From a virus: a stretch of DNA of 64,000 nt. Both the position numbers and the translations under genes were made by a program. This document shows positions 11,306 through 27,725 of this stretch, in pieces. The stretch is taken from positions 13,815 through 77,814 of IMG/VR virus record IMGVR_UViG_3300048065_001264; one strand, 5' to 3'. Each line of letters starts with the position of its first letter. Position 1 is the first letter of the stretch. The notes beneath the pieces were generated by a model. That model did not search any database. It was given only the letters and a program-made list of their open reading frames with translations, and was not told the origin of the DNA.

Positions 11306-12121
11306 TTATATAATCTTACGATTTCCTAAAATGCGATCAAGTTTTTCAGCAAGAGTTACTTTTTTCCAATCCTCGGAGACTTTATATGTTTTTCCGTCTA
11401 CCTCAAATTCTGTGTCTCCATCTTCTTTTGCTTTAGTAACAGCTGCACCAAATGCATTTCCTTCTTCTACATCGTCTTCAACTTCTTCATTTGTAAGTTC
11501 ACCTTCACCAGGGTCTTCACAATCTTTACAATCGGCTGCATCAACATGGTTTTCATTTTTACCAATGTCGGATGATTTTGATTGTTCTTTTACCTGATAT
11601 GTTTTTCCATCTACTTCAAATTCAGAGTCACCGTCTTCTTTTGCTTTAGTAACAGCTGCTCCAAATGCGTTTCCTTCTTCTACATCGGAATCGTCACCTA
11701 TAAACTCTTCGGTATCTTCACCTTCTTCAATAACTTTTTCTCTAAGTTGATATGTCTTGCCACCAACTTCAAATTCAGAGTCACCATTTTCACGGGCTGC
11801 TTTGACAGCTGCACCAAATGCATTTCCTTCATCAATGGATTCTTCTTCAGAATCATCATCAGAGTCTTCTTGCTTTCCCTGTTTCTTAAGAATTGCTTTC
11901 TTTAATGGTTCTGGTAGTTTTTCTTGAGCAGCTGTTAACCCTTCTTCAACTGCTTCGTCTGAATCATCATCAGACTCTTCTTGCTTTCCCTGTTTCTTAA
12001 GAATTGCTTTCTTTAATGGTTCTGGTAGTTTTTCTTGAGCAGCTGTTAAACCTTCAAACAAACCAAGTTCTTCTGCTACTTCTTGAATAATTTCTTTAAG
12101 TTCTGATTTTGTAATTTTCAT
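11306..12121 (-). CDS. acidic repeat-containing putative internal head protein
   Basis: N-terminal MKITKSELKEIIQEVAEE leader; 2x GLTAAQEKLPEPLKKAILKKQGKQE and 3x GNAFGAAV..A.E.GD.EFEV.GKTY repeats. Confidence 0.75.
   Translation of the reverse strand: MKITKSELKEIIQEVAEELGLFEGLTAAQEKLPEPLKKAILKKQGKQEESDDDSDEAVEEGLTAAQEKLPEPLKKAILKKQGKQEDSDDDSEEESIDEGNAFGAAVKAARENGDSEFEVGGKTYQLREKVIEEGEDTEEFIGDDSDVEEGNAFGAAVTKAKEDGDSEFEVDGKTYQVKEQSKSSDIGKNENHVDAADCKDCEDPGEGELTNEEVEDDVEEGNAFGAAVTKAKEDGDTEFEVDGKTYKVSEDWKKVTLAEKLDRILGNRKII
11850..12055. repeat. 95-bp direct repeat (11850-11944 and 11961-12055), 2 mismatches
   Basis: Direct sequence comparison; encodes the duplicated GLTAAQEKL... peptide. Confidence 0.9.
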
Positions 12122-12136
12122 GGTAAATTTATTTCC

Positions 12137-12877
12137 TTATAAAAACATTTGGTGTCCTGATACTATTCTTTGCATATTTTCAAATGCCGATCCTGTTTTA
12201 AATGATTTTTTTCCACATTTTGTTTCTGCCTCATTAACCGAATCTTGTGTAACTACTTTATTTTCAAAAAATCTTTGTGAAAGTAATTTAGTTGTATACC
12301 CAAGTTCTGTCTCTGTCAAGTTTTCCATTTTCTTTTGACGACAGGCCTGTTTTACAAGATATTCAAACAATCTTGTAAATTGAGTTTTATCGTACATTTT
12401 ATCTTGAATCTCATTTGTAATTTTTTCAAATATCATATTAGTTTTATCTCTACAAAAAGACTCATTTGTATAAATGAACTCAATTAAGTTTTCGGCATTT
12501 TCGGTATCCACCTCTGTGAGAACTTTATCGTTAGTTCCACATATACGTGAAAGTTGCTCTCTTGCCGACATATTAGTTTCCATCAATTCTCCGTAAAATT
12601 CTGGATTAGGTTGAAATTCATACGATGTCCATTCATTTATATAATGTCCACCAAAGTGAGAAGTCTCCTCAAATTTAAATGATAAATTGTTTTGAATTGC
12701 ATATTCGTTTGCGTCTTGGATTGTCCCCTCACACACGCACTCTCGTTCAATTCCACGAAAACTTATATTTTTTTTAACAAGTTTACCATGTACACTTGGT
12801 ATAGTTTTTACTTTTTCAAGTAAAACTTTTGTAATAAAATTTTTAAGATTGCGTTTGTCCATTTGTGATTTCTCCAT
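12137..12877 (-). CDS. hypothetical protein (head cluster)
   Basis: 246-aa ORF; LKNFITKVLLE leader; true start may be a few codons downstream. Confidence 0.65.
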   Translation of the reverse strand: MEKSQMDKRNLKNFITKVLLEKVKTIPSVHGKLVKKNISFRGIERECVCEGTIQDANEYAIQNNLSFKFEETSHFGGHYINEWTSYEFQPNPEFYGELMETNMSAREQLSRICGTNDKVLTEVDTENAENLIEFIYTNESFCRDKTNMIFEKITNEIQDKMYDKTQFTRLFEYLVKQACRQKKMENLTETELGYTTKLLSQRFFENKVVTQDSVNEAETKCGKKSFKTGSAFENMQRIVSGHQMFL

Positions 12878-13307
12878 TTATTTCAAAATATCTGTTTAAT
12901 ATATTTCCCATATCTTCGTATAAACTTTGCATTCTCTGTGTATATACTTGTCGTTCGTTTGCAGTTTTGTAAAACTCTTTGGCCAATGTTTTAATTTCCT
13001 TTAAATTTCTTTTTACACTAATCGCATCAAACCAATCATCAGTTTCGTTTAATATATACTTTGATGCATTTTCAACGATATTACAAATATCTTGTGCAAC
13101 GTCCATATCCTTAGCCTCCAATGCAATAAACTTTTGATACTTTCCAAATTTAGAGATTTTTTCAGAAGCAATTTTCTTTTGTTCAGATGTAAGACCTTCG
13201 TCTGAGAATCTATTAGTGTCTGCATTGAACTCATTTATTTGCTTTGCGTTTTCTTCTCGCAAAACTTCCAAAATTACTTTTTTAATTTCTGTTTTACTAA
13301 TACTCAT
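12843..13307 (-). CDS. hypothetical head-cluster protein
   Basis: DDWFDAISVKRNLKEI..LYEDMGNILNRYFEI; coupled to the protease gene. Confidence 0.75.
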   Translation of the reverse strand: MSISKTEIKKVILEVLREENAKQINEFNADTNRFSDEGLTSEQKKIASEKISKFGKYQKFIALEAKDMDVAQDICNIVENASKYILNETDDWFDAISVKRNLKEIKTLAKEFYKTANERQVYTQRMQSLYEDMGNILNRYFEINGEITNGQTQS

Positions 13308-13936
13308 TTTCCGTCTCCGAATTCACCTAAGATTTCATGTATTATAGACTCCACCGCACAGAATTTTGTACAGACACGATTTTCTGATGTGTTTATCTTA
13401 GATAAATCTACTGATTCATTTAAATTTACAGGTTCGAGAAATGCACCTCGTGTGGATGGGTTACTAACGAAATCAAATGCGACCAATTCAAAGTCATCAT
13501 TTACCAGTGTCGTTCCTTCATGTTCACGGGTTGTTCCCATTCCACGTGAACTTATTCCAAGTGTAATTCCACCCTTGAAAAGTTCTTTTAAAATATTACC
13601 AGCAGGAGTTCCAAGTATTTCTACATCACCCAAGAGATTATCACCTTCCCACCACATCTTTGTAACATTGTGACTTACATTTTGTAAATTGACTACACTA
13701 CTCTCTGGATGATCTAACTCTCCCAATGCTCGTCTGTCGTTTATCATTTCTTGATATTTACCTGCCTCCCGTTCTAGCAAAGGACGAGAATACACTCTCC
13801 CATTTTGGTTCTGCTCGGTTGCTTTTTGCAAAATACCTCTTACCAATAGTTTACCTGAATTTTTTTCTATGCTTTCACTTATTTGTTCAGGACTAAACTC
13901 AAAGGGCATTGTAGATACTATTAATTTTTTTGCCAT
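13304..13936 (-). CDS. gp21: prohead core protease (gp21-like)
   Basis: NQNGRVY, ALGELDHP (catalytic His), GISSRGMG (catalytic Ser), DFVSNPS. Confidence 0.95.
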   Translation of the reverse strand: MAKKLIVSTMPFEFSPEQISESIEKNSGKLLVRGILQKATEQNQNGRVYSRPLLEREAGKYQEMINDRRALGELDHPESSVVNLQNVSHNVTKMWWEGDNLLGDVEILGTPAGNILKELFKGGITLGISSRGMGTTREHEGTTLVNDDFELVAFDFVSNPSTRGAFLEPVNLNESVDLSKINTSENRVCTKFCAVESIIHEILGEFGDGK

Positions 13937-13991
13937 ACTAATAGATAAGTATATATGTATCTGTATTTATTTCTATTTTTTCTATTACAAG

Positions 13992-14909
13992 TTAAGTTAA
14001 ACTTAATTTATAGTTTTTTATTAAATTTTCGTTTGAATTGTTAATCAAATTAACAAATCGTTCCACAACTTCATTCAAATCATGGATACCTCCAAGTTCA
14101 AACACATAATTATCGGACTTTAAATAGAATTTCGTGTTCTCAAAAGTTAAATTGTAATTATCATTTTTAAAGTTCGAATTAAGTTCAAAACCAGTATCAC
14201 TTATAATTGGTTTTTCTAAATTTAATAAATTGGTTTCATTTAACAATATTGTTAAATGGTTTACAATATCATTTATTTCGTCTGTTGGAACTTTTTCAGG
14301 TAAGTCGGTATGTTTTGTTTTAGCAAGTTTTTTTACATCTTTTTGTTTCATGTCACTTGCAATTTTTTTTATTTTATCAAACAACTCATCATCTATTTCA
14401 GATTTTTTTAAATCTCCGTTATTATAGGCATAAACCATACCAAATAATCTTTGTTGAGACTTGGACTGCGATTGTTCTTTTACAGACTCGTTTGGTTCTT
14501 TTTTTGTATCAGTTTCTTCTTTTTCTGCTTCTTCCTTTTCTTTTTCTGCTTCTTCCTTTTCCTTTTCTGCTTCTTCCTTTTCTTCTTCTGCTTCGGCCTC
14601 TTTGTTATCAAGTTGCTGATCACCATCTCTGGTATCACCCATAGGAGTTATATTTAATTCAGAATCCGATACATTATCATCATCCAAGTCAATTCCCAGC
14701 TCAATCATTGCTATACCAAGTTTAGACTTTTTAAGCAACTCTTCAATTCCAATCCAATATGTTTCTGGAATTGTTTTTCCATCTTGGGTTTTTTTGAATT
14801 CAGCAACCGATGTTGCTAGATTTTTTAAATTTTTTTTAAAATTGATGAAAACAGGATTGTCTTCATCCAACTCTGTTATCGCATTTTCCTGTTTACAACT
14901 ACACGTCAT
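13992..14909 (-). CDS. hypothetical protein with EAEKEKE repeats and a DUF3008-like motif
   Basis: SKSQQRLFGMV...MKQKDVKKLAKTKHTDLPEKV; likely start ATG at 14909 (ORF track start 14936). Confidence 0.65.
   Translation of the reverse strand: MTCSCKQENAITELDEDNPVFINFKKNLKNLATSVAEFKKTQDGKTIPETYWIGIEELLKKSKLGIAMIELGIDLDDDNVSDSELNITPMGDTRDGDQQLDNKEAEAEEEKEEAEKEKEEAEKEKEEAEKEETDTKKEPNESVKEQSQSKSQQRLFGMVYAYNNGDLKKSEIDDELFDKIKKIASDMKQKDVKKLAKTKHTDLPEKVPTDEINDIVNHLTILLNETNLLNLEKPIISDTGFELNSNFKNDNYNLTFENTKFYLKSDNYVFELGGIHDLNEVVERFVNLINNSNENLIKNYKLSLT
14517..14595. repeat. 21-bp tandem repeat, about 3.5 copies (EEAEKEK)
   Basis: ttttctgcttcttccttttc-type units. Confidence 0.75.
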
Positions 14910-15309
14910 TGCTAGACTCCAATAATTTACTAACACACCCTACATTCACACGCATAAGTGCTTGATTTAAACGCATAATTGACTTTTTGACTTCCATTAT
15001 ACATTCATTTAAACTTTCTAGTTCAACACTATTTAATAAATTTGATGTATTTAAGTTAAAATTAGCAGAATACTTACCCTCTATATTCTTTTTTATTCTA
15101 AGAGTTACATCAACACTATTAATAGTTTGTTTCCACTCAGCACCCAATTTAGTTGCAACCCAACCACTCCCAAACAAATTAGCAAGTGCTTTGTTTTCAG
15201 TTAGACTCACATCTGAAATTTTTTTGGTTTTTGATTTTTTTCCTAAAAAATTAATTTTACTAAATAAACCAAAAGACGATTCAACTTCTTTTCTTTGGTA
15301 ATTTTTCAT
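14899..15309 (-). CDS. hypothetical protein
   Basis: 136-aa ORF tightly packed in the operon. Confidence 0.6.
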   Translation of the reverse strand: MKNYQRKEVESSFGLFSKINFLGKKSKTKKISDVSLTENKALANLFGSGWVATKLGAEWKQTINSVDVTLRIKKNIEGKYSANFNLNTSNLLNSVELESLNECIMEVKKSIMRLNQALMRVNVGCVSKLLESSNDV

Positions 15310-15310
15310 T

Positions 15311-15841
15311 TTACCTTATGTTTCTTAACTTTTCAGAAATCTTTTTCATTTTTAAATCTGCTTTATCCAAAAATCTGTTTGTAGTCCTCCAACAATTTTT
15401 GCTATTTATATTTGACTCTGTTTTAAATCTACCTGTAATACCCAATAATAAATTTATTTCATCAAGCATCTTATTTACTTTTCTTACTGCCACACCGACT
15501 TTTTGAACATTTGACATATCAGGATGATCTCTGAATACATGGTATAAACTCTTTCCCTCTTTTATGGTGTTATTTTTAAAATTAGTTGTTGTTTTATAGT
15601 CGAACACTTCAGCGGTGTCTTTGATATTATCAGAATGTTCATCTTCATCATCATTTTTATTAAAAGCAAATGGTGTTTGATAACCATCTATATTTGATGT
15701 TGTGTTTATTTCATCAACCTTTTCACAATCACATGGATCGTTTCCACAACTATCACAACACTCTTCTTCTAATATCTCTTCTAATTGCTTTCGTATTAAA
15801 TTGCGTAACTTACTGAGATTATCGTTCTTCATGCTTCTCAA
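15311..15841 (-). CDS. hypothetical head-cluster protein
   Basis: LRNLIRKQLEEILEE leader, Cys-rich CCDSCGNDPCDC, GYQTPFAF motif. Confidence 0.7.
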   Translation of the reverse strand: MRSMKNDNLSKLRNLIRKQLEEILEEECCDSCGNDPCDCEKVDEINTTSNIDGYQTPFAFNKNDDEDEHSDNIKDTAEVFDYKTTTNFKNNTIKEGKSLYHVFRDHPDMSNVQKVGVAVRKVNKMLDEINLLLGITGRFKTESNINSKNCWRTTNRFLDKADLKMKKISEKLRNIR

Positions 15842-16679
15842 GTTCCTTTATCAGTTCATAACTCATCAATAAAGTAGAAACTTGTGAATCTCTAACAACA
15901 CGACCTTCTCTTATTTTGTCAAGTTGAGATATAACTTCATCTAATTTTATTTTTACAACTTCATCATCCACTACACTTGATGACAATTTATTTATTTTTT
16001 CTTTTACAACTGGTATTTGATTATTAATATACTCTCTTAAACTATTTGTATTAGAAACATTGTTGATATAACTTTTAAGAAGTTTTTGTTGATCTTCATT
16101 TAAATCACTATACTTTTGATTGAATTTATCTACGAGTAATTTATATGTTATTAGTCTTAAATCTTCGGTGTGCTTTACGAAATTCTCAGTTTGCTCTTCT
16201 TTTGAAACTTTTTTATTGCATAGTCCTTCTATTACTGTGTTTTTTGAACTATGAATTTCTTTCGGATCACAATATGTATCTGCTTTTTCGTTTTCAAAGA
16301 GTTTGTATATACTTGCATAGGTCTTGTAATTACGAATTTTCGAACGCAAAAAGTCATTTATTGGATATGAATCTTTCATTTCTTTGACTAACTCATATCT
16401 AAGTTTTGATAATTTTTTTGAATCAAGTTTACGGTGTGACTTGATAACAGCATCAATTAAACGTTCGGCATCAGGTAAATCACCAGCAGTTTCTTCAAGA
16501 AGTAATTGGTATAGTCTTTGCTCCTTTCCAAGTGAAGTATTTTCTGCGAAATATTTACGCATCAAATTATTTGCTTTTGATGTGGCATTGTCGTCCAGAA
16601 TATCAGCAGTAATCTGCCTTACAAGTAATTCGAAAAGAATTCCTGTATTCTTAAATTTGCTATGTTTTAGTTTTTTCAC
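15819..16679 (-). CDS. helical protein downstream of the portal gene (putative prohead assembly factor)
   Basis: KHSKFKNTGILFELLVRQITAD N-terminus; GTG start; position between portal and protease genes. Confidence 0.75.
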   Translation of the reverse strand: MKKLKHSKFKNTGILFELLVRQITADILDDNATSKANNLMRKYFAENTSLGKEQRLYQLLLEETAGDLPDAERLIDAVIKSHRKLDSKKLSKLRYELVKEMKDSYPINDFLRSKIRNYKTYASIYKLFENEKADTYCDPKEIHSSKNTVIEGLCNKKVSKEEQTENFVKHTEDLRLITYKLLVDKFNQKYSDLNEDQQKLLKSYINNVSNTNSLREYINNQIPVVKEKINKLSSSVVDDEVVKIKLDEVISQLDKIREGRVVRDSQVSTLLMSYELIKELEKHEER

Positions 16680-16753
16680 GTGAATGTTAACAAATATATA
16701 TGTTCATAAATATAAGTATAAATATAATTTATCTTCTAATAATTCAAAAAAAT

Positions 16754-18643
16754 TTAAGAGTCTATCAAGTTATCCTCATTTAAAAAGTTTGATTCTGTAT
16801 TATTTTTAGTTGAGTTTGCATCATTTTTGCTTTTATCTTTTACTACATTTTCAGTTTTCTCTACTAAAATTTTCTTTTCTTCACTAATTTTTATTTGAGA
16901 CTTCTTTGACTGCAAAAACTTGTTTAAGTTTTCAAAATCATGTTCTAGTTTCAATGGACTGTCTCCCCAATCACGACCACTCACTCGTCTTTCACCCGCA
17001 CCAAGGGGGTCTCTTCCCATTGGTTTATTATCAGGATGGTCATACTTTTTATTAGCATTTTTTCGTTTCTTTTCTTCCTTTTTTCGTTTTTTTAATAACT
17101 CTTCTTTTTCTTGATCTGAAATATTATTATCAAACTCACCAAACCCCCACGAATCACCGTCAGACTCATCCCCATCAGGTTGTGCATTAGGATCAGCGGG
17201 GTCAGCTCCCTCATTTTGAATAGTCTCAAGTCTGTAATATTCTTTTGCATCATTAACGAAATCTTCACGAACTCCTTTATATTCATCTTCAGATAAACCA
17301 AATATTTTGTCATACACCCAATTTTTAGAAAACATTTTTGCATCAACCATATCACGAGCCGTGCTTAATTTTTCGGAAAGTATTCTTACTCGTTCCTCTT
17401 CAAATATTGTTGATGGATTTGTTAATTGCAATCCAAAATTAACTAAATTTGCATCGGTATAACCCTGTGAGTATAAATGTACAATTGCTATCTTAGTCAA
17501 CTCACTTATTAAAATTCTTTGTACACGTTCAATTGTTCTTGCGAACCGTATATCTTCAGCTGCTAAAGTTGCCTTGCCTGTTATTCCTTCTTCGTATCCA
17601 AGAAATGCTTTTGGAATTTTAAGTGCAGCCATCATTTTATTTTTTACATACTCAATATCTTCTGTTCCGTCATATGTCATTGCACCTAAATTTTCAATAC
17701 GAGTACCACTATCACCACCACGAACAGGCATAAAAAAGTCTTCTGTCATATTTTGTAGATTAAACTTCAAATTATAGTCACCTGTTTTTTCATCCACAAA
17801 TGGAACTTTTTTCATTTTATTAATAACTTTTTGCATAAAGTTATCAACTTCATTTGGTGGAATATTACCAATATCAATATAAAACATCCTTTTTTCAGGA
17901 GCCCTCATCACCCGATGAATTAGCATGGCATCTTCCATAAGTTGCAATTGCTTCCAAACTCTTCTTGCAGGTTCAATCATACTTTTACCATAAGGTAAAA
18001 AATTACTATCCCCAAGCATTCTGAAGTGTGCTATTTCAAAGTTGTCGTAGTCTGCTCGTATTTCACCTTCCTGTTTAAAACATACATACGAAGGATTTGT
18101 TGGGTCTAAATCTTCAACCCGTGTCATTTCATATGTAGAAATTGGTTTTACATTCATGATACCATAGTCTGGTTCAATCTCAAGATGTAAATAAAAATCT
18201 CCATACTTGCACATATTACGAGTCCAACTCCACAAGTTAAACTCAATATTTAGAATGTCATAAAAAAGATTTTCCAATATACCTTTTATATTAGAATCTT
18301 CACTTGTTATTTTTAAAACTTCCCCAAATTCACTTCGTGTTGTGCACTCGTCTGAATAAATATCCAATGCACTTGCGATAATTGGATCATTTTCCATGAT
18401 GTCGTAATCACTAAATAACTCTAATCTATGCGTTTGATACCCAATGTTATTGTATTGACTTGTATAATCTGAATATAATGTATGCATACGATTAAATCTA
18501 TCACGCAATCTTGTATTTCGTTGAAAGTCATCGGTATCCGCAACTTTGAGTTTCCTACCCCCAACATTACGCACAATAACATTTGTGGAAAACATTTTAC
18601 GTAAACCACTTACAAGTTTTTTATATTTGGAATCTTCAGCCAT
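16754..18643 (-). CDS. gp20: portal protein (gp20-like)
   Basis: KQLQLMEDAMLIHRVMRAPEKRMFYIDIGN, EDFFMPVRGG, EDIRFART. Confidence 0.96.
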   Translation of the reverse strand: MAEDSKYKKLVSGLRKMFSTNVIVRNVGGRKLKVADTDDFQRNTRLRDRFNRMHTLYSDYTSQYNNIGYQTHRLELFSDYDIMENDPIIASALDIYSDECTTRSEFGEVLKITSEDSNIKGILENLFYDILNIEFNLWSWTRNMCKYGDFYLHLEIEPDYGIMNVKPISTYEMTRVEDLDPTNPSYVCFKQEGEIRADYDNFEIAHFRMLGDSNFLPYGKSMIEPARRVWKQLQLMEDAMLIHRVMRAPEKRMFYIDIGNIPPNEVDNFMQKVINKMKKVPFVDEKTGDYNLKFNLQNMTEDFFMPVRGGDSGTRIENLGAMTYDGTEDIEYVKNKMMAALKIPKAFLGYEEGITGKATLAAEDIRFARTIERVQRILISELTKIAIVHLYSQGYTDANLVNFGLQLTNPSTIFEEERVRILSEKLSTARDMVDAKMFSKNWVYDKIFGLSEDEYKGVREDFVNDAKEYYRLETIQNEGADPADPNAQPDGDESDGDSWGFGEFDNNISDQEKEELLKKRKKEEKKRKNANKKYDHPDNKPMGRDPLGAGERRVSGRDWGDSPLKLEHDFENLNKFLQSKKSQIKISEEKKILVEKTENVVKDKSKNDANSTKNNTESNFLNEDNLIDS

Positions 18644-18650
18644 AACCCTT

Positions 18651-18679
18651 ATACTATTTTATATATACATATATGTCAA
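18651..18679 (-). promoter_or_regulatory. sigma70-like promoter of the portal gene
   Basis: TTGACA-17 nt-TAGTAT, 7 nt upstream of ATG 18643. Confidence 0.6.
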
Positions 18680-20924: not shown

Positions 20925-20932
20925 ATAAATAT
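20925..20932 (-). promoter_or_regulatory. putative phage late promoter ATATTTAT upstream of the terminase gene
   Basis: 5 nt upstream of ATG 20919; no RBS. Confidence 0.65.
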
Positions 20933-22045: not shown

Positions 22046-22425
22046 ATTTTTAAATCCAAAATTTTAGTATTCGGACTATTTGCCAACTCCCTACCTTTTG
22101 GGCCTAATGTCATAAGAACAATATTAAGTGTTGGTTTATTGTCACTTAAAATAAATTTAGATACAAAAACTATATCATACCTATATCTTTTATCCCTCAG
22201 AATATATTTTTTTTCTGTGTTACCTGTTCGTACTAAATCTTTAATAGATGCAGATATTATTAAATTTTTTCCTCTTGCAAGTGTCGATTTTATTTCATCG
22301 TTCCGTATAAACGAAAATCCATCTCGTTTTTTTCGCACAAAAGAATGAAATGTTGAATTGATACTTATATTAAAATCAATACATTTTTTAAAAATCTTAT
22401 TTATTTCTTCGCATAAATTAATCAT
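22042..22425 (-). CDS. hypothetical protein, possibly BECR-fold RNase-like
   Basis: Likely start ATG at 22425 (ATGATTAA overlap with upstream stop); HSFVRKKR...I..DEIKSTL..G pattern. Confidence 0.5.
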   Translation of the reverse strand: MINLCEEINKIFKKCIDFNISINSTFHSFVRKKRDGFSFIRNDEIKSTLARGKNLIISASIKDLVRTGNTEKKYILRDKRYRYDIVFVSKFILSDNKPTLNIVLMTLGPKGRELANSPNTKILDLKI

Positions 22426-23299
22426 ATTTGCCTTTTTTAAAATCTCTACGATCATATGCTTTTTTGCTTTGCATGGGACGACTTTTAGGCATGGTTGATT
22501 TACGTATTTTTTTATATGCATCGAGTTTTGTAATCAACTTTTTCTTTTTTGCTTCTGTTAATTTTTGTATTTTATGAACAAGCATTTTTATATATTCTTT
22601 TTTACTACCACGGCCTTTAAAATAAGAACTTTTGTCACTTAGCATTTTCGCAACATCAAGAATTGCCTTTAAATCTTTTAAATTTTCCTCTTTTTCTTTA
22701 TCTTCTTTCATATTGTTAGGCCCATCTATTTTTGTAAACTCTACATAAAACAATCCAGTCTTTGAAGATTCAAATGGTTTTCCTCCTACTTTTTTGCAAT
22801 GTAGTTTTGCGTCATCTCTTGTTTTGAATGCATATGGTTTTAAGTCACCATTTACATATTTAGCAGATACTTCTGGGTACGATCCATTAACACTTAATGT
22901 AAGCACACCATGTTTATTTTCCTGATCAACTTCGGTCATTTCACCTTTATCATTACCCTTTGCTCTTACTTTTTTTAATCGTTCAAGTTCTTTTTTCTTT
23001 ACGACAGGTAAAAGTTTTTTTGCTATACGATTTATAACACCAGGTTTGGTTGCTAACTTTTTATCAATTTTTTCTTTAGCAGTAATTGCAAGTGAACTAT
23101 AACTTTGACCACCTGTCATTCTTTTTACTAAAATATTTTTTGCTTTTTTTTGTGCAATTGCTTTTAGTTGATCTGTACCTTTTCTTTTTTTCTCTTTGCG
23201 CTTTCTAGCACGTTCTCTTTTTTTCTGAGTTCGTTTTGCTCGAATTGCCATTTTCTTCCTAGCTGCCCGAGAAATTTGCTTTTCATTTTGTTGTTCCAT
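22418..23299 (-). CDS. very basic multi-segment hypothetical protein
   Basis: Lys/Arg-rich N- and C-terminal segments; RIAKKLLP..KK.E.ERL. Confidence 0.7.
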   Translation of the reverse strand: MEQQNEKQISRAARKKMAIRAKRTQKKRERARKRKEKKRKGTDQLKAIAQKKAKNILVKRMTGGQSYSSLAITAKEKIDKKLATKPGVINRIAKKLLPVVKKKELERLKKVRAKGNDKGEMTEVDQENKHGVLTLSVNGSYPEVSAKYVNGDLKPYAFKTRDDAKLHCKKVGGKPFESSKTGLFYVEFTKIDGPNNMKEDKEKEENLKDLKAILDVAKMLSDKSSYFKGRGSKKEYIKMLVHKIQKLTEAKKKKLITKLDAYKKIRKSTMPKSRPMQSKKAYDRRDFKKGKYD

Positions 23300-23300
23300 A

Positions 23301-25814
23301 TTAGAACCTCATTATACCCATAATTTGATTTATAGGAGCAAATGTTCCGGTTAGTTTATATGTTCCACCTTTATATTGAAATACAACACCTTCTGTTGGT
23401 GCGATTGCGTTGCTTCCACCAATAGAATTAAGACGATTGAGATTTTTATTTAACTTCTCCATGTCTTTTTTAAACTTATCAGGTGATTCAACAGAACCAA
23501 TCTTTTTTGATTCTAATGTTTTAACATGAACATCAAGTGCCTTTGCTATATCATCACTTCCTCCGGCCGCAACGAATCCTTTTACATTCTTTAATACTTC
23601 CGCACCCAATTTCAAAAAGATGAATTGAAATGGCCACATATTTTCTTCAAATTGTTTTGTAATATCTTCTTTTTCAAACTTAGTAACCCACGCAAGTAAC
23701 TTTGGGTGATCAGATAAGTCTTTTTTAATAGTGGTGATTTTGTTAGACTTATCATTATATGCCCAACGACCAATAAGTGCTTCGTATACGTTTGATGGAA
23801 ATATCTCTTTAGTTTTTGTTTGTTGTTTATTTAATAAATCTCTCCACCAAGAATCATGATACTTCATTACTTTGTCGTTGTCTTTTAATCTAAATTTGTT
23901 TTTAAGTTTATCTATTTTAGCAGAATACTTTGCATAAGAATCTCCAAATGTTTTGCTTTTAGGAAGTTCTACCACAATCGGTGCATTTAAAGAATATCGT
24001 TTTTGAACATCTGCGTTAATTTGTTTCAACATACCTTTAAGCATTCTTGCAGAATCTTTAAGTTCACTTGTTATATCATTTCCTTCAGAATCTACACTTA
24101 CTGCTTTTCCTGCGGAATCGTATGCTTGTGTTCCGTGAAATACTAACATATCTACATTTTGAGGAATCACATTTTGTGTTGCTGGTGTCATTACTTCTAT
24201 ATTCATAAAACGTTCACCTTCACGAAATACTTTATTCTTTTGTGCATCGGTAAGACCAGATATAGCAGTTTCCAAATCTTCAACTGCACTTACAAATGCA
24301 TCACGAATATTATCAGGACGATCAGCAAATATACTTGAAAATTCTTTTACATTAGGTGCGGCTGCTCCTGCGTTTTTTAAATGACCTTGATTTCTTGCAG
24401 CCACCAACTGACCATCTTTCCAAGAAAACATTAAATTTTGTCCATCAAGTTTTTCAGTAACTTCTTTTTCAACATTTAATTCACCTGCGAGTGATCTACG
24501 AATCATTTCTTTTAAATCACCGAATGTTAACTCACGATCATCAAAAGGATGACTCATATGACCGGCCGCACCTCCCTCTGTAAGCAAGTTTTCATTTATT
24601 GACTGACCGTTTACACCTGTTTCTAATTTATTTTCATCTTCGTTATCTTTAACATCTAGTGTATTTCCGTCTACATTTTCGTCTCCTGATTTATCTATTT
24701 TTCGTATCGATGATTCAGAGCCTACAAAATCTACTAATTTAAATCCAGTTGTTTCTGCCACATTTTCTATAAAAGATACCCACTGTTGATGTGCCTGTGA
24801 AGATTTTTCAGTATCAATTTGGTTTGTAGGAGTTTGTGCATCAGATACTCCAGACGGATAAAAACTAACTGCCGATACGGGACCGGAATAATCTCCGTAT
24901 TCACGATAATCTGAGTTTCTTCCTTTGTCGTTTTTATCCACCACATAATCAAGTAATTCATAACCAAGTTTTTTTGCTCTTTTAAGAGTATGTGTTTCAT
25001 ACGATTTGTTTGGAAAGAAAGAAGATGGACCGTCATCCACTATCTGCTTACCAAGTGATCCTATTGTACTTAATTCATTTAAAATATTTGGAAATGTTTT
25101 AATAAATGGTAGTAATTTTGGATATTCACTTAAAAAGTTTTCAAATAATTCCTCGTTTTCAAACAATGTGCTAAACTTCTTGGTAAGGTATTTAAATATT
25201 TTTTCGTCATACCACCCAAATAATTCTTTAAATGCTTGAATTTTTGTCATTTTATCATGCTCAGGACTGCCTAGTAAATCACGGATACGAGTACCACTTA
25301 CTTCCTTACCCAACACCTTAATACTTACATGAGGAGCAACGATGAAATATCCATGCTCACCGTATGGTTTCAAATCATTCTTATTTTTCTCATACGATTG
25401 ATAATATGCAGGAGAACCATCTGCTTTAGTTGTTTTTAATCTACCTGCATCTTTTTCTCCGAAAATATAAACGACAGCAGTTGTATTTGGGTCATACTTC
25501 TTTAAAATTTCTTCGCATACATATGGATTTTTCACTTTGACTACGTTTTTGACACCATGTTTTGTCCACACCATTTTCTTTTCTTTAAAATTAAGAGGAC
25601 TTTTTGTGGCATCGGTTTTATTACTTGTAGCAACATATGCTTTATCAAACTTACCATCCAACCATTTGTATGTTTTGTGATGGTGAACACCAGCTGGCTG
25701 AAATCTACCAGGATATATACCGATTACTTTGCGTATAGAATCTTCATTTAAAGCGTCACCCACTACATAGTCTGTGAGATTCTTCGTAAGTAACTCTTTT
25801 AAATCAACATTCAC
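23301..25814 (-). CDS. HIGH-type nucleotidyltransferase (cytidylyltransferase-like) fused to an ATP-dependent ligase-like domain
   Basis: N-terminal YPGRFQP...HH, SPL.F.EK, VSGTRIR; C-terminal EKLDG (motif I), EGVV (motif IV), YKL (motif V). Confidence 0.7.
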   Translation of the reverse strand: MNVDLKELLTKNLTDYVVGDALNEDSIRKVIGIYPGRFQPAGVHHHKTYKWLDGKFDKAYVATSNKTDATKSPLNFKEKKMVWTKHGVKNVVKVKNPYVCEEILKKYDPNTTAVVYIFGEKDAGRLKTTKADGSPAYYQSYEKNKNDLKPYGEHGYFIVAPHVSIKVLGKEVSGTRIRDLLGSPEHDKMTKIQAFKELFGWYDEKIFKYLTKKFSTLFENEELFENFLSEYPKLLPFIKTFPNILNELSTIGSLGKQIVDDGPSSFFPNKSYETHTLKRAKKLGYELLDYVVDKNDKGRNSDYREYGDYSGPVSAVSFYPSGVSDAQTPTNQIDTEKSSQAHQQWVSFIENVAETTGFKLVDFVGSESSIRKIDKSGDENVDGNTLDVKDNEDENKLETGVNGQSINENLLTEGGAAGHMSHPFDDRELTFGDLKEMIRRSLAGELNVEKEVTEKLDGQNLMFSWKDGQLVAARNQGHLKNAGAAAPNVKEFSSIFADRPDNIRDAFVSAVEDLETAISGLTDAQKNKVFREGERFMNIEVMTPATQNVIPQNVDMLVFHGTQAYDSAGKAVSVDSEGNDITSELKDSARMLKGMLKQINADVQKRYSLNAPIVVELPKSKTFGDSYAKYSAKIDKLKNKFRLKDNDKVMKYHDSWWRDLLNKQQTKTKEIFPSNVYEALIGRWAYNDKSNKITTIKKDLSDHPKLLAWVTKFEKEDITKQFEENMWPFQFIFLKLGAEVLKNVKGFVAAGGSDDIAKALDVHVKTLESKKIGSVESPDKFKKDMEKLNKNLNRLNSIGGSNAIAPTEGVVFQYKGGTYKLTGTFAPINQIMGIMRF

Positions 25815-26326
25815 TTATTTAAAATCTCGGAAAGAATTGTACGAATTTGTTTTCTGATTTTTTGCTCGTATACTCGTTTTTCAACAAATTTTTTGTATTC
25901 TACTTTAGACATAGGGGCAATTTCATCTGCCATTTCATCAAATCCTTTTCTTTTTAAGAATGCGATTACTTTATCTTTTGCCTTAAGAATACTTGAATGC
26001 ATATCTGACATAAAATCAATTGCTTGTTTGTATTCTTTACTTGTTATTTTAATTTCATTCATAGTTTTTTCCTCATACATTGACATATAAAAATCTTCAT
26101 CTTGTGCAGCTGCTTGAAAATCTCTCCATGCTTGCTCTGCCTCTTTTCCTACCATAATTACCTTTCCCTTTGGATAGTAAAGTATTTCGTCACCTTTTTT
26201 AAACTTTACACCACCCTTACGCAATCTGCGCTGGACTGGTAATCTTTGCTCGCCAGAAACTCCATCGTATTTTGATTTCATCCAAAAAGGATCATCTTTG
26301 TATTTTTTGTATTCTTTTATACTCAT
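25811..26326 (-). CDS. hypothetical protein
   Basis: Y.DDP.W...KY..., KKGDEILYYP; C-terminal IRKQIRTILSE helix. Confidence 0.7.
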   Translation of the reverse strand: MSIKEYKKYKDDPFWMKSKYDGVSGEQRLPVQRRLRKGGVKFKKGDEILYYPKGKVIMVGKEAEQAWRDFQAAAQDEDFYMSMYEEKTMNEIKITSKEYKQAIDFMSDMHSSILKAKDKVIAFLKRKGFDEMADEIAPMSKVEYKKFVEKRVYEQKIRKQIRTILSEILNK

Positions 26327-26328
26327 AA

Positions 26329-26682
26329 TTAGTCCTCAAAGTATTCAATAATTTTTCCAGTTTTAATGTGTTGTTTACAGGCCTTCTTTTTATCACGATG
26401 CATATGGGGTGCTTTGTCTAAATATTCTTGTGTACAATGAAATATATACCCATCTACAATAGGTCCTTCATCAGTTTCTCCCTCACTAAAAATTCCAATA
26501 AACTTGAAATCATCTTTTTCAGTTTTTAAAAGTTTCATTGCGAGTTTTTTTGCCCAATTCTCGTTTCCATGTTTTGATGATGAAAAACTAAAACGAGCAT
26601 GATTAGGAGCCATCTCAAGTCTCCACAACTCTCCTAGTTTTTCCTCGTTTATCAAATCATCTATAATACAATTAAAGTCCAT
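26329..26682 (-). CDS. hypothetical protein
   Basis: 117-aa ORF in the operon. Confidence 0.65.
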   Translation of the reverse strand: MDFNCIIDDLINEEKLGELWRLEMAPNHARFSFSSSKHGNENWAKKLAMKLLKTEKDDFKFIGIFSEGETDEGPIVDGYIFHCTQEYLDKAPHMHRDKKKACKQHIKTGKIIEYFED

Positions 26683-26687
26683 TATTT

Positions 26688-27725
26688 TTACTCTTTAAAG
26701 TCTAAATTTCTAATATGATGAAAGTATTTATTAAGTTGATTTTTAGATAACTCAAGACTATCAACTATACGAGAAAGTACTGCTAAATTTCTTTGTTCAT
26801 TTAAATCAAACTTTTTAATCACATGAATTGAACGACTTAAATGTCTTTCCAAGTCCATTGGTAAAACAACATCTTGCATTGTATCAATAGTATACTCTTC
26901 GTTTACACGACTTCTTTTGTCACCACTCTTGCTCATTTTATCATGTGCCATCATGATTTTAATCCATTTCTTTCCAATTGGATTTCTAATTGGTTTTGAA
27001 ATAAATTTTGCTACCTCTTTCATAAGTCGTGGAACTAAATCTAATCTACCTGGTTTTGTTTTACTACGAGTATCTTCTGAATTATCTACTATAACAAAAT
27101 TTGCTTTGAATAAACCTTGAAACTTACCAATATTTTTTTGAACATCTGTCCAAATATCTTTTACTATTTTTCTTGGAAGTTTTCTCTTACGCATTGCGTT
27201 TCTTTGTTGTGCCACATCTAATGTTGTATTTACAAACACCATATAGCAATCGTATCCAAGTTTTTCAAGTTCTTGTTTTTGCTTTGATATTTTGCTATAA
27301 TTATCACCTGTTCCGTCAACTATTACACCCAAACGGCCGTCTTTGAATAATTCAAATTGTTTAAGCATTATTTTCTTTGCACGTGAACGAACACTATTTG
27401 GATCATCACTTGTTACTTTAGCAAATGTTTCGTCATCCATTTTAGATAGATTCAGATCATATCCTGCTTTTTTAAGTAATATCTCAAATGCAGGATCACT
27501 ATTTACAATCTTTAATCCACTTGGAGATAAATTGGCTGCGTCAGGTGGAAAATTAAATAATGTATCAACAGTAGCAGATTTACCTGATCCAGGACCTCCT
27601 GCTAGAAATACTGCTTTTAAAATACCAGGATCATATACACCCTCTACAAGTGTAAAGTATCCTTTACGCAACCCTGCTTTAATCAGGGTTTCTTGGACTT
27701 TTTGATTTTCTTCGGATTTTTCCAT
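26688..27725 (-). CDS. P-loop kinase (zeta-toxin/AAA_33/polynucleotide kinase-like)
   Basis: AVFLAGGPGSGKS Walker A, VNSD, IVDGTG, A..RN..R.R lid. Confidence 0.85.
   Translation of the reverse strand: MEKSEENQKVQETLIKAGLRKGYFTLVEGVYDPGILKAVFLAGGPGSGKSATVDTLFNFPPDAANLSPSGLKIVNSDPAFEILLKKAGYDLNLSKMDDETFAKVTSDDPNSVRSRAKKIMLKQFELFKDGRLGVIVDGTGDNYSKISKQKQELEKLGYDCYMVFVNTTLDVAQQRNAMRKRKLPRKIVKDIWTDVQKNIGKFQGLFKANFVIVDNSEDTRSKTKPGRLDLVPRLMKEVAKFISKPIRNPIGKKWIKIMMAHDKMSKSGDKRSRVNEEYTIDTMQDVVLPMDLERHLSRSIHVIKKFDLNEQRNLAVLSRIVDSLELSKNQLNKYFHHIRNLDFKE

What the first reader, a model, noticed from the sequence alone, without database searches (positions are those of the whole stretch)
11306..27725. Candidate set of capsid-packaged, protease-matured cargo proteins with shared leaders and x-x-E cleavage sites
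Seen: many small or unrelated ORFs carry an amphipathic helix ending in Glu: MKITKSELKEIIQEVAEE (11306), LKNFITKVLLE (12137), TEIKKVILEVLREE (12843), LRNLIRKQLEEILEE (15311), LKELL...ALNE (23301), IRKQIRTILSE (C-terminus of 25811), IIDDLINE (26329), KSELIEVIRKAVRLELSE (58411). Recognisable domains start right after (L/I/V/M)-x-E: LVE|GVYDP (kinase), LTE|GGAAGH (ligase-like), LNE|DSIRKVIG (NTase), VKE|QSQSKSQQ (DUF3008-like), MTE|V and LTE|A (basic protein). Established: T4 gp21 cleaves after L/I-x-E, and T4 internal proteins use an N-terminal capsid-targeting sequence. Inference: this phage loads a broad set of proteins, including enzymes, into the prohead as polyproteins, matures them with its gp21-like protease (13304-13936), and may inject them at infection.
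Basis: partly seen in the sequence, partly recalled or inferred. Interest (0 to 1): 0.8.

Follow-up and report, generated by a model that had tools for sequence, protein, structure and literature searches.

The report
Capsid-targeting leaders and jointed cargo proteins
An uncultured marine T4-type phage puts a shared, probably cleavable leader helix on several head-module proteins and builds a neighbouring set of late proteins (a basic protein, a kinase, an NMNAT-like/ligase-like enzyme) from modules joined at the cutting motif of its head protease, so it probably loads and trims a varied protein cargo in its capsid as T4 does with its internal proteins, though no cutting or packaging has been measured.

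Summary
All quoted motifs are at the stated places. A strict shared leader (x-E-L-K/R-x-h-I/V-x-x-V-L/A-x-E, Glu invariant) is real for four adjacent genes around the S77 (gp21-type) prohead protease. It recurs at the C-terminus of the 25811 product and on ORF 224. A looser form (hhxxhhxE) sits on the NTase-ligase, the 26329 product and the protease's own C-terminus. The kinase N-terminus is not such a helix.

[LIVM]-x-E alone is uninformative: 2 per 100 aa, and one sits inside ligase motif I. Comparative data rescue the idea:
- In the basic protein, the only three such sites coincide with the three points where relatives insert whole modules, each module bringing its own h-x-E. Two lie in the only two disordered linkers of the AF2 model.
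- In 126 kinase-domain starts from longer metagenomic proteins, P1 is Glu in 122 and P3 is L/I/V/M in those same 122, behind unrelated upstream sequences.
- Fused kinase-NMNAT-ligase proteins lie next to terminase, portal and protease in relatives.

Verdict: an expanded, modular variant of the T4 capsid-targeting and gp21-processing system. Cleavage, packaging and injection are inferred, not shown. The scan noted the same grammar before in related genomes (e1-6057937 and others).

The parts
13304..13936 (-). Prohead protease of the gp21 family. Its C-terminus (13322-13351, ESIIHEILGE|FGDGK) is a leader-like amphipathic helix ending in Glu.
   Evidence: Pfam PF03420 E 4.8e-27. phrog_207 head maturation protease, 4e-54. 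The C-terminal helix is conserved as (V/I)EGIIHEILGE in about 30 relatives.
8359..9774 (-). Major capsid protein (gp23 family). The predicted propeptide ends at QLIDE|A (9592-9606, residues 57-61).
   Evidence: Pfam PF07068 E 1.6e-83. 30% identity to T4 gp23 from residue 81. The h-h-x-E|A site is kept in all relatives, including immuto (QIVSE|A) and Mel-JY01 (QLISE|A). Its position resembles that of T4 FLTE|A at residues 65/66. The site itself is inferred.
9808..11100 (-). Acidic scaffold-like protein (26% Glu) in the place of gp22. It has 26 [LIVM]xE sites.
   Evidence: Position between the protease block and the MCP. N- and C-terminal parts are conserved around a variable acidic middle. No Pfam or PHROG match.
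11306..12121 (-). Leader protein 1. Leader MKITKSELKEIIQEVAEELGLFE| (12053-12121), followed by repeated short peptides, each after h-x-E|G, separated by acidic spacers.
   Evidence: Matrix score 34.1. Leader conserved in 27 distinct orthologs. [LIVM]xE enriched, z 3.3.
12137..12877 (-). Leader protein 2. The likely start is at 12862. Leader MDKRNLKNFITKVLLE| (12815-12862).
   Evidence: Matrix score 26.3. Orthologs start MN(K/R)SELKKFV.KVLLE. No family match.
12843..13307 (-). Leader protein 3. Leader MSISKTEIKKVILEVLREE (13251-13307), followed by a conserved helical body.
   Evidence: Matrix score 27.1. Orthologs carry ..IK..ILEVLKEE. The Mel-JY01 homolog carries IVQEVVREVIAE.
13992..14936 (-). 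Modular head-module protein: N-terminal part, acidic spacer, SVKE| (14475-14486), then a DUF3008 module (14295-14471) ending DLPE|.
   Evidence: Pfam PF11450 E 7e-6. Some orthologs lack the DUF3008 module altogether. The same module is inserted into the basic protein of relatives.
15311..15841 (-). Leader protein 4. The likely start is at 15832. Leader MKNDNLSKLRNLIRKQLEEILEEE (15761-15832).
   Evidence: Matrix score 24.3. 28 distinct orthologs keep h-h-x-E after a variable helix. The Mel-JY01 homolog starts MNKSDIIDFIKKIRE.
22418..23299 (-). Very basic modular protein. Its only three [LIVM]xE sites are EMTE|V (22931-22942), NMKE|D (22703-22714) and KLTE|A (22553-22564).
   Evidence: Relatives insert modules of 57-137 aa at these three points, and [LIVM]xE lies at most of the junctions. 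Junction test: 10 of 13 left and 6 of 13 right boundaries carry the motif, against about 10% expected; control families are at chance. AF2: the only segments with pLDDT below 50 are 117-128 and 191-199, which hold two of the sites. The third lies in a helix.
23301..25814 (-). NMNAT-like nucleotidyltransferase plus ligase-like protein. Loose leader MNVDLKELLTKNLTDYVVGDALNE| (25743-25814). Acidic linker, then LLTE| (24576-24587) before the ligase-like domain (23304-24575).
   Evidence: Pfam CTP_transf_like is weak (E 0.007), but the GRFQPxGxHH motif is present. The leader varies, yet (I/L)-L-x-E is kept in all 17 distinct orthologs. h-x-E|GGA.GH is kept in 21 orthologs, and two of them carry an extra helix in front of it. 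KxDG is invariant. Structural matches to ligase adenylyltransferase domains are weak, Z 4.0-4.8.
25811..26326 (-). 171-aa protein of unknown family with the leader motif at its C-terminus (QKIRKQIRTILSEILNK, 25814-25864). Its stop overlaps the NTase start.
   Evidence: Matrix score 15.1 here and 12-23 in 14 distinct orthologs, always at the C-terminus.
26329..26682 (-). 117-aa protein with a short leader MDFNCIIDDLINE| (26644-26682).
   Evidence: Orthologs read MFDKIIDELI.E|DKLGE. More distant ones read MNMLSE|SLGE. Matches the generic hhxxhhxE pattern at the N-terminus.
26688..27725 (-). P-loop kinase (Zeta-toxin/AAA_33 type) with a 28-aa non-helical N-terminal extension ending TLVE|GVYDPG (27642-27653).
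   Evidence: Pfam PF06414 1.7e-11 and PF13671. The phrog_12810 match starts at residue 26 and at profile position 260 of 788. In 126 domain starts from longer homologs, P1 is E in 122 and P3 is L/I/V/M in those 122.
27746..27753 (-). Promoter-like ATATTTAT motif heading the kinase-to-basic-protein gene row.
   Evidence: 29 copies in the window against 14.7 expected. Minus-strand copies precede the tube, sheath, scaffold, terminase and baseplate genes as well as the kinase.
58411..58833 (-). 140-aa protein next to the gp25-like baseplate gene with a leader-like N-terminus (58774-58833). Whether it belongs to the system is uncertain.
   Evidence: Matrix score 8.4 here and 16.1 in the G001 ortholog. 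Its neighbour 58026-58421 is GPW_gp25.
224..565 (-). Small ORF with a leader-like N-terminus (VEVNKLKSSILKIYEEVLNE, 506-565). Whether it belongs to the system is uncertain.
   Evidence: Matrix score 14.7. The promoter-like motif at 570-577 lies inside the ORF as first called, so the start is probably at 565. The G001 ortholog scores only 9.1.

Best explanation
The window holds the late/head block of an uncultured T4-core myophage. Its nearest named relatives are Flavobacterium phage immuto and Microcystis phage Mel-JY01.

Tier 1: head-module leader proteins.
- Four small proteins encoded around the gp21-type protease (ORFs 15311, 12843, 12137, 11306) begin with one portable amphipathic helix that ends in an invariant Glu, with L or A at P3.
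- A C-terminal copy of the motif sits on the 25811 product. A looser helix of the same pattern sits on the protease's own C-terminus.
- This helix most likely docks its bearer into the scaffolding core of the prohead and is then cut off after the Glu by the protease. T4 does this with the 10-residue capsid-targeting sequence of its internal proteins and with the propeptides of gp67, gp68, Alt and gp21.

Tier 2: the gene row just upstream (27725 to 22418).
- It is headed by the same promoter-like motif as the structural genes.
- It encodes a kinase, two small proteins, an NMNAT-like/ligase-like enzyme and a very basic modular protein.
- Their N-termini and internal module boundaries carry [LIVM]-x-E.
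- In relatives the same modules are shuffled, inserted, or fused into proteins of up to 1,900 aa, always with h-x-E at the joints.
- These are most likely polyprotein-type cargo: taken into the prohead, cut at the joints (the T4-type protease is active only there), retained with the DNA and possibly ejected into the host.

Status of each step.
- Shown: the motifs, their statistics, their conservation, the module shuffling at the joints, the synteny with the head genes, and the disorder of two joints in the model.
- Inferred: docking, cleavage, packaging and ejection.
For: 1. T4-type head module with an S77 protease.
2. The strict leader gives 7 hits of at least 12 bits against 0.18 expected, 6 of them N-terminal. 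It is kept in pattern across 15-30 distinct orthologs per family and in immuto and Mel-JY01 homologs.
3. Leader-like helices sit at the C-termini of the protease and the 25811 product. T4 gp21 and Alt are also processed at the C-terminus (PMC9026906).
4. The basic protein's only three [LIVM]xE sites lie at the three module-insertion points. [LIVM]xE lies at most insert boundaries: 10 of 13 on the left and 6 of 13 on the right, against about 10% expected. Controls are at chance: portal 0/7 and 1/7, MCP 1/3 and 0/3, fibre 0/5 and 0/5.
5. In the AF2 model of the basic protein the only segments below pLDDT 50 are 117-128 and 191-199, which hold two of the three sites.
6. At 126 kinase-domain starts in 114 longer homologs, P1 is E in 122 and P3 is L 62, I 32, V 21, M 7. 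Upstream lie unrelated leaders (40 cases) or unrelated modules (86 cases). The 4 exceptions have R-x-N, so the fold does not need the Glu.
7. Seven module types are preceded by [LIVM]xE in 77-100% of distinct contexts.
8. 759 longer proteins combine this kinase with PF01467, PF11450, PF01966 or PF01743. 439 IMG/VR stretches encode the fused form, and 77 of 79 fetched loci have the terminase next to it. All 13 long loci go on to portal and protease.
9. The kinase row carries the same ATATTTAT motif as the structural genes.
10. T4 precedent: cleavage after L/I-X-E, a 10-residue CTS sufficient for packaging, and the enzyme Alt packaged and ejected (PMC9026906, PMC3012670).
Against: - No virion proteome or N-terminal sequence exists for this phage or any relative found; nothing on immuto or Mel-JY01 was in the library.
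- The strict leader is absent from the kinase, the NTase-ligase, the 26329 product and the basic protein. The basic protein starts with a basic, not an amphipathic-acidic, helix.
- [LIVM]xE is common (2 per 100 aa) and not enriched in the enzymes.
- A conserved V-T-E lies inside ligase motif I (VTEKLDG), where cutting would destroy the enzyme, so the motif is not sufficient for cleavage.
- h-x-E before the ligase-like and kinase domains is inherited together with the domain and could be part of it. Some relatives have LLLM|GGAYGH without Glu.
- The third basic-protein site lies inside a predicted helix.
- In HTVC008M the homologous kinase, NTase and ligase genes lie beside replication genes.
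- The four head-module proteins may be core proteins that are degraded and expelled, like T4 gp67/gp68, rather than delivered cargo.
- ORF 58411, which carries the leader, lies in the baseplate block.
Confidence: 0.6

Rival explanations
1. Only the head-module proteins belong to the prohead system. Their shared helix would be a core-assembly or oligomerisation element of scaffold-accessory proteins (gp67/gp68 analogues), which are degraded and expelled. The kinase, the NMNAT-like/ligase-like enzyme and the basic protein would be ordinary cytoplasmic late or repair proteins. The h-x-E in front of their modules would be a linker or domain-cap preference inherited with each module, not a cleavage site.
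For: - The strict leader is confined to the head-module families plus the 25811 C-terminus.
- The enzymes are not enriched in the motif.
- h-x-E|GG.xGH is kept even in Mel-JY01 at 40% identity.
- The ligase-like domain sometimes lacks the Glu, and VTEKLDG shows that conserved h-x-E also occurs inside domains.
- The HTVC008M homologs lie beside DNA polymerase, UvsX and primase-helicase.
- T4 gp67 and gp68 have comparable helices with L/I-x-E.
Against: - In the basic protein, module insertions of four unrelated kinds all sit at, and bring, h-x-E. The control families show nothing similar.
- Kinase starts keep both P1 Glu and P3 L/I/V/M behind more than 15 unrelated upstream contexts, yet the fold tolerates R-x-N.
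- Long proteins such as P0080 and P0087 repeat (E)SVNE between every module.
- The fused gene lies directly upstream of terminase, portal and protease in 77 of 79 loci.
- The NTase and 26329 leaders vary freely except for the terminal h-x-E.
Confidence: 0.27
2. The shared helix is a recognition tag for some other partner, such as a modifying enzyme, a chaperone or an export system, rather than for the prohead. The scan argued this for a shared 16-residue tag in phage RB43 that tracks a radical-SAM enzyme.
For: The leader also occurs on a protein in the baseplate block (ORF 58411) and at C-termini.
Against: - No radical-SAM gene is present in this contig or in two relatives that are 80% and 84% complete.
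- The tag-bearing genes flank the prohead protease in every relative.
- The tag ends in the residue after which gp21-type proteases cut.
- The same h-h-x-E precedes the predicted MCP maturation site.
Confidence: 0.05
3. The resemblance is compositional. The proteome is AT-rich and rich in Lys, Glu, Ile and Leu, so amphipathic helices ending in Glu would arise by chance.
For: - [LIVM]xE is frequent.
- The generic hhxxhhxE pattern is not enriched overall: 22 observed against 19.4 expected from shuffles.
- The all-against-all N-terminal comparison shows only a modest excess over internal segments: 33 against a mean of 19 and a maximum of 31.
Against: - Strict-motif hits are about 40-fold over shuffles and are concentrated at termini.
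- The pattern is placed at the N-terminus about 4-fold more often than expected in two genomes.
- The Glu is conserved in otherwise variable leaders across dozens of orthologs.
Confidence: 0.03

Closest known systems
Phage T4 capsid-targeting sequence (CTS) and gp21 processing of the internal proteins IPI-III, Alt, gp67, gp68 and gp22
   Same: - A gp21-family (S77) protease sits between the portal and MCP genes.
- Short N-terminal leaders are shared by otherwise unrelated proteins and end in hydrophobic-x-Glu.
- The scaffold and small core proteins are rich in such sites.
- The protease itself has a terminal propeptide-like helix.
- In T4 at least one enzyme (Alt) is packaged (PMC9026906, PMC3012670; T4 sequences).
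   Different: - The leader is longer (about 14-20 residues) and not sequence-similar to MKTYQEFIAE.
- It also occurs at C-termini.
- The candidate cargo includes multi-module proteins whose modules are shuffled at the joints, and in relatives is fused into polyproteins of 600-1,900 aa with kinase, NMNAT-like, ligase-like, HD and CCA-type modules.
- Nothing here has been verified experimentally.
Head and inner-body protein processing in giant phages phiKZ, 201phi2-1 and SPN3US (gp175 / gp245 proteases)
   Same: Many head proteins, including ejected ones, are cut C-terminal to Glu at a very short motif, often at several sites per protein. The propeptides carry redundant sites (PMC9026906, PMC7411985, PMC10052503).
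   Different: - Those phages prefer S/A/G at P3 (from my own knowledge), whereas P3 here is L/I/V/M/A.
- Their substrates are not described as shuffled enzyme modules.
- This phage has a T4-core head with an MCP 30% identical to gp23.
Pelagibacter phage HTVC008M and Methylophilales phage Melnitz (cultured marine T4-like phages)
   Same: They encode homologs of the kinase at 45% identity. In HTVC008M the kinase starts MIPFILKE|GLYDPG, and the neighbouring genes encode NTase-like and KxDG proteins with short leaders (MYNDLLVE|D...).
   Different: These genes are separate and lie beside replication genes, not beside the terminase. No processing data are known to me.
Earlier notes of this scan on related uncultured T4-like phages (e1-6057937, e1-3862018)
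   Same: They describe the same grammar: a cleavable leader helix plus modules joined at the head-protease motif. The MIKLKDLLxE leader variant was seen here too, in L121, L139 and P0113.
   Different: They concern other genomes. They are AI notes and not independent evidence.

Membership tests
T4-type CTS / gp21-processed prohead proteins | A gp21-family (Peptidase_S77) prohead protease is encoded in the head module | tested here: met
   PF03420 E 4.8e-27 at 13304-13936. phrog_207, 4e-54.
T4-type CTS / gp21-processed prohead proteins | A short terminal leader is shared by proteins whose bodies are unrelated | tested here: met
   The matrix scores 24-34 bits on four unrelated families. Shuffles give 0.18 hits of at least 12 bits. 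None of the bodies matches a Pfam family above its curated cut-off, and none matches a PHROG.
T4-type CTS / gp21-processed prohead proteins | The leader ends in the protease motif: hydrophobic at P3, Glu at P1 | tested here: met
   Glu is invariant at matrix position 13, with L or A at position 11. The same h-h-x-E precedes the predicted MCP maturation site.
T4-type CTS / gp21-processed prohead proteins | Sequence homology of the leader to the T4 CTS (MKTYQEFIAE) | tested here: not met
   The leaders here (KSELKEIIQEVAEE type) share only the amphipathic character and the terminal Glu with the T4 leaders read and quoted in PMC9026906. The likeness is functional, not homology.
T4-type CTS / gp21-processed prohead proteins | The leader is sufficient for encapsidation and is removed by the protease inside the prohead | not testable with these tools
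   Needs leader-reporter fusions and virion mass spectrometry.
T4-type CTS / gp21-processed prohead proteins | The mature proteins are present in the virion and are ejected with the DNA | not testable with these tools
   No proteome of this clade was found.
Viral polyprotein cut by the virus's own protease at module joints | Module boundaries coincide with the protease motif more often than chance | tested here: met
   Basic protein family: 10/13 and 6/13 boundaries, against about 10% expected, with controls at chance. Kinase starts: 122 of 126. Seven module types: 77-100%.
Viral polyprotein cut by the virus's own protease at module joints | The joints lie in exposed linkers | tested here: inconclusive
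   Two of the three joints of the basic protein fall in the only two segments with pLDDT below 50. The third lies in a helix. Other proteins were not modelled with their joints.
Covalent nucleotidyltransferase (ATP-dependent RNA/DNA ligase) superfamily, for residues 414-837 of the 23301-25814 product | Motif I KxDG and the adenylyltransferase fold | tested here: inconclusive
   K42, D44 and G45 of the domain are invariant in 17 sequences. The AF2 model has mean pLDDT 71. Foldseek gave no hit at E<=0.001, though the top weak rows are tRNA/RNA ligases. VIA-align gave Z 4.0-4.8 to ASFV ligase, T4 DNA ligase and Trl1 over residues 41-190, below a trustworthy level. No Pfam family and no PDB sequence match.
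Zeta-toxin / AAA_33 P-loop kinases, for the 26688-27725 product | Family profile match above the curated cut-off, with a Walker A motif | tested here: met
   PF06414: 44.4 bits against a cut-off of 22.3. PF13671: 27.5 against 27. GGPGSGKS is present.

The most novel reading that the evidence does not exclude
A large clade of marine T4-like phages uses the head protease's h-x-E site as a universal 'joint', so that enzyme and DNA-binding modules can be recombined freely into leader-tagged polyproteins. The modules include a P-loop kinase, an NMNAT-like transferase, a ligase-like domain, HD and CCA-type domains, DUF3008 and basic peptides. The polyproteins would be packed into the prohead, cut into working parts there, and injected with the DNA as a ready-made RNA-repair, NAD-salvage or anti-defence kit.
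Probability: 0.33. Interest if true: 0.8.

Novelty: new variant of a known kind. Interest (0 to 1): 0.6.

Why it matters
If the reading holds, T4's well-studied trick of loading a few internal proteins by a cleavable tag would be one small case of a widespread, evolvable cargo system in abundant ocean phages. Whole enzymes would be delivered pre-made with the genome, and new cargo would arise by swapping modules at protease sites.

That would bear on how marine phages beat host defences in the first seconds of infection. It would give a sequence rule for predicting virion cargo from metagenomes, and it would offer natural leaders and joints for packaging foreign proteins into phage capsids.

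The claim can be tested directly on cultured relatives (Mel-JY01, immuto, HTVC008M, Melnitz).

Tried and rejected
- Megablast of 11306-20919 against GenBank phages gave no match.
- PHROGs and Pfam gave nothing for the four leader proteins, the 26329 and 25811 products, or ORFs 58411 and 224.
- ESM Atlas gave no usable hit for the 25811 and 12137 products.
- A PDB sequence search with the NTase-ligase gave only chance-level rows.
- Foldseek and VIA-align on the ligase-like domain gave no trustworthy match, only recurrent weak ligase rows.
- Complex prediction (scaffold 1-75 plus scaffold 285-430 against the 12843 product) returned 'no answer', score 0.00. This is no evidence either way.
- A literature search for Mel-JY01 and immuto found no characterisation or proteome. 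A search for T4-like polyprotein cargo found only the T4 and giant-phage reviews.
- phmmer of the window's cargo proteins against the immuto and Mel-JY01 head regions found only the 15819 homolog.
- A first pure-Python all-against-all script timed out.
- I looked for depletion of [LIVM]xE inside the enzyme bodies as a sign of selection against cutting. None was seen; the z values are near 0.
- I considered a frameshift joining the C-terminal leader of the 25811 product to the NTase. I rejected it because the two ORFs overlap by 4 nt in different frames in all relatives.
- I considered a radical-SAM partner as in RB43. None is present.

Full report
WHAT THE WINDOW IS

All genes lie on the minus strand of a 31% G+C contig. 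The record is 77.8 kb, and CheckV rates it 39% complete.

Pfam identifies these genes:
- a gp23 major capsid protein (8359-9774)
- a Peptidase_S77 prohead protease (13304-13936)
- a gp20 portal (16754-18643)
- a T4-type large terminase (19318-20919)
- a gp19 tube protein and a gp25 baseplate protein
- a Zeta-toxin/AAA_33 kinase (26688-27725)

The nearest named relatives are Flavobacterium phage immuto and Microcystis phage Mel-JY01, both with about 53% MCP identity. T4 gp23 is 30% identical.

Transcription order is: kinase, 26329, 25811, NTase-ligase, basic protein, small ORFs, terminase, lipoprotein, portal, 15819, 15311, 14899, 13992, protease, 12843, 12137, 11306, scaffold-like protein, MCP.

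THE OBSERVATION

To test 'shared leaders' without choosing by eye, I compared the first 32 residues of all 58 genes with one another. The top pairs link 11306, 12843, 15311, 58411, 12137 and 224. The excess over internal segments is modest: 33 pairs of at least 25 against a mean of 19.

Related loci sharpened this. I fetched 43 IMG/VR loci with the protease and 30 with the NTase-ligase. In each of the four families 11306, 12137, 12843 and 15311 the N-terminus keeps one pattern while its residues drift. A matrix built from 98 distinct N-termini gives x-E-L-(K/R)-x-h-(I/V)-x-x-(V/I)-(L/A)-x-E, with the Glu invariant.

In the window's genome the matrix scores as follows:
- 24-34 bits on the four training genes
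- 15.1 on the C-terminus of the 25811 product
- 14.7 on ORF 224
- 10.0 on the N-terminus of the 13992 product
- 8.4 on ORF 58411

Shuffles give 0.18 hits of at least 12 bits against 7 observed, and 6 of the 7 start in the first 20 residues.

In a 161-kb relative (80% complete) the same set appears and nothing more: the four head proteins, the 58411 ortholog at 16.1, and the 25811 C-terminus. The strict leader is therefore real but marks only about 5-7 proteins per genome.

The C-terminal copy on the 25811 product is kept in all 14 distinct orthologs.

The NTase-ligase and the 26329 product do not match the strict motif. They carry a looser hhxxhhxE helix. That pattern is not enriched overall (22 against 19.4 from shuffles), but it is placed at the N-terminus about four-fold too often: 6 against 1.5 here and 12 against 3.5 in G001. 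In orthologs the NTase leader varies freely except for a constant (I/L)-L-x-E before I(K/R)KVIGIYPGRFQP. The 26329 leader reads FDKIIDELI.E|DKLGE.

The protease's own C-terminus is (V/I)EGIIHEILGE followed by 3-5 residues in about 30 relatives.

The kinase's 28-residue extension is conserved but is not such a helix.

IS x-x-E MEANINGFUL?

Alone it is not. [LIVM]-x-E occurs 2.0 times per 100 residues. The small head-module proteins are enriched (z 2-3.3), but the kinase, the NTase-ligase and the basic protein are at expectation. A conserved V-T-E sits inside ligase motif I, VTEKLDG, where cutting would kill the enzyme.

I answered it with module boundaries defined by relatives, not by eye.

The basic protein family (22 complete distinct members, 279-472 aa) has three variable blocks. 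At block 2, members without an insert read GP..M(K/S)E|DKEKEE. Members with inserts read:
- a 62-aa insert: GPVNE|KVEYK...TGWTEMNE|NK
- the DUF3008 module: GPINE|KSVSKSQQ...DLPEKVPTNE|SK
- both inserts, with SVNE| between them

At block 3 a 61-aa module follows KLSE|. At block 1 an insert of about 130 aa follows ELAE| or PVNE|.

A blind scan of all families gave the following:
- basic protein: 10 of 13 left and 6 of 13 right boundaries with the motif, against about 10% expected
- portal: 0/7 and 1/7
- MCP: 1/3 and 0/3
- giant fibre: 0/5 and 0/5

The junction sets are not all independent; about four module types are involved.

The window's basic protein has only three [LIVM]xE sites: MTE|V, MKE|D and LTE|A. 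Each lies at one of the three insertion points. In an AF2 model (mean pLDDT 77) the only segments below 50 are 117-128 and 191-199, which hold the first two sites. The third lies in a helix.

THE KINASE JOINT

PHROG 12810 aligns to the kinase from residue 26 and from profile position 260 of 788, so the domain is embedded in longer proteins elsewhere.

A search for longer homologs found 759 proteins of 605-2,000 aa at E<=1e-10. Many also carry PF01467 (the NMNAT-type fold), DUF3008, HD or poly(A)-polymerase-type domains.

In the best 120 there are 126 kinase-domain starts. P1 is Glu in 122, and P3 is L/I/V/M in those same 122. The upstream context is a short leader in 40 cases (MIKLKDLLFE|, MKLTKEQIIDVIME|, MSLKKLVEEITKPILQE|, MNLLE|) and an unrelated module in 86. 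The four exceptions, in high-G+C proteins, read R-x-N|G, so the fold does not need the Glu.

Proteins such as P0080 and P0087 repeat (E)SVNE| between every module.

Across all fetched sequences, seven module types are preceded by [LIVM]xE in 77-100% of distinct contexts. These are the kinase, a KOW-like module, PRKKGQ, the NMNAT-like domain, the ligase-like domain, DUF3008 and the 62-aa module. The ligase-like domain is the weakest at 80%, and some relatives read LLLM|GGAYGH.

CONTEXT

The fused polyprotein has 439 relatives in IMG/VR. In 77 of 79 fetched loci the terminase follows it. In all 13 long loci, portal, the 15819 homolog and the S77 protease follow in the window's order. In the window's clade the same modules are separate genes.

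The kinase row is headed by the promoter-like ATATTTAT motif (29 copies against 14.7 expected). The same motif precedes the tube, sheath, scaffold, terminase and baseplate genes. This suggests late co-expression but does not prove it.

In cultured HTVC008M the kinase (MIPFILKE|GLYDPG) and its NTase-like and KxDG-bearing neighbours lie beside replication genes. That weakens the link to the head for that phage.

WHAT THE ENZYMES ARE

The kinase assignment is solid.

The N-terminal domain of the 837-aa protein has the GRFQPxGxHH signature and a weak CTP_transf_like hit. Relatives are annotated as cytidylyltransferase or NMNAT.

The C-terminal domain has an invariant KxDG. Its structural likeness to ligase adenylyltransferase domains is only weak, at Z 4.0-4.8. 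'Ligase-like' stays a lead.

COMPARISON WITH THE KNOWN

T4 gp21 cuts after L/I-X-E. The first 10 residues of IPIII suffice for packaging. Alt, an enzyme, is packaged, cut at both ends and ejected. gp21 itself is processed at its C-terminus. The review already suggests that the CTS lets T4-like phages pack varied proteins (PMC9026906; PMC3012670).

T4 gp67, gp68, gp22 and gp23 read here show the same kind of helices and sites, including FLTE|A at gp23 residues 65/66. The window's MCP keeps QLIDE|A about 20 residues before the first block that aligns with gp23.

Giant phages cut many head proteins after Glu at several sites (PMC9026906).

What differs here:
- the longer, unrelated leader
- its use at C-termini
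- module shuffling at the joints
- the enzyme modules

RIVALS

1. Only the head-module proteins are prohead components (gp67/gp68-like core proteins), and the enzymes are cytoplasmic (0.27).
2. The tag serves another partner. No radical-SAM gene is present in this contig or in two relatives (0.05).
3. The resemblance is compositional chance (0.03).

The structure-based binding test of the 12843 product against the scaffold gave no answer and counts for nothing.

VERDICT

This is a new variant of the T4 capsid-targeting and processing system, with good comparative support and no experimental support.

The scan had noted the same grammar in related genomes: e1-6057937, e1-5405557, e1-6040419, e1-6088557, e1-6088565 and e1-5685301. 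I re-derived the main points independently here.

Noticed in passing
window 570-577, 1174-1231, 4780-4787, 8263-8276, 11202-11209, 16706-16725, 20925-20932, 27746-27753, 33936-33943, 40105-40112, 42367-42374, 43369-43376, 62253-62260 (minus strand): ATATTTAT on the coding strand lies a few to about 100 bases upstream of many structural genes and of the kinase row (29 copies against 14.7 expected). The copy at 570-577 lies inside ORF 224-589 as first called, so that gene probably starts at 565.
   Followed up: partly
L063:4076-7534 (IMG/VR relative): In one relative the NTase-ligase carries an extra 323-aa N-terminal module (CVVCAKKFGEDVVLGKNRDRNY..., reminiscent of Ntn/C45-type hydrolases) with its own leader. 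The usual NTase leader is kept internally (...TLENYLTEEIETIFE|NSNVTKVIGIYPGRF).
   Followed up: no
window 14295-14471; relatives L024:423-1841, L003:1227-2264: The DUF3008 module (SKSQQRLFGMV...DLPE) is mobile. It sits in the head-module 13992 protein here, is absent from some orthologs, and is inserted into the basic protein of other relatives.
   Followed up: partly
window 9700-9774 and 11050-11100: The MCP and the scaffold-like protein both begin MS(E/K)..KLLKE, a helix that resembles the first half of the cargo leader. All prohead-internal components may share one docking helix.
   Followed up: no
window 54043-54627: A 194-aa ORF in the tail/fibre block is as enriched in [LIVM]xE (11 sites, z 3.1) as the head-core proteins. 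This is unexplained.
   Followed up: no
window 22042-22521 vs 22418-23299: The 159-aa ORF overlaps the 3' end of the basic-protein gene by 104 nt in another frame. Its true start is probably a downstream ATG. It has no family match.
   Followed up: no
window 20978-21604: A highly conserved 208-aa protein with Cys clusters lies directly upstream of the large terminase, where a small terminase would be expected. Its N-terminus (MAKMDKEDLKHVIK) scored in the pairwise N-terminal comparison but is not the leader.
   Followed up: no
L121, L139 (IMG/VR relatives of the fused polyprotein); P0113: A sister clade that includes pelagimyophage-like contigs uses a different, shorter leader (MIKLK..L.E|) on several small head-module ORFs and on the kinase. 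This is the leader an earlier scan note described.
   Followed up: partly
window 8280-8330, about 1985-2025, about 595-640: G+C-rich hairpins followed by T runs (terminator-like) follow the MCP, sheath and tube genes.
   Followed up: no
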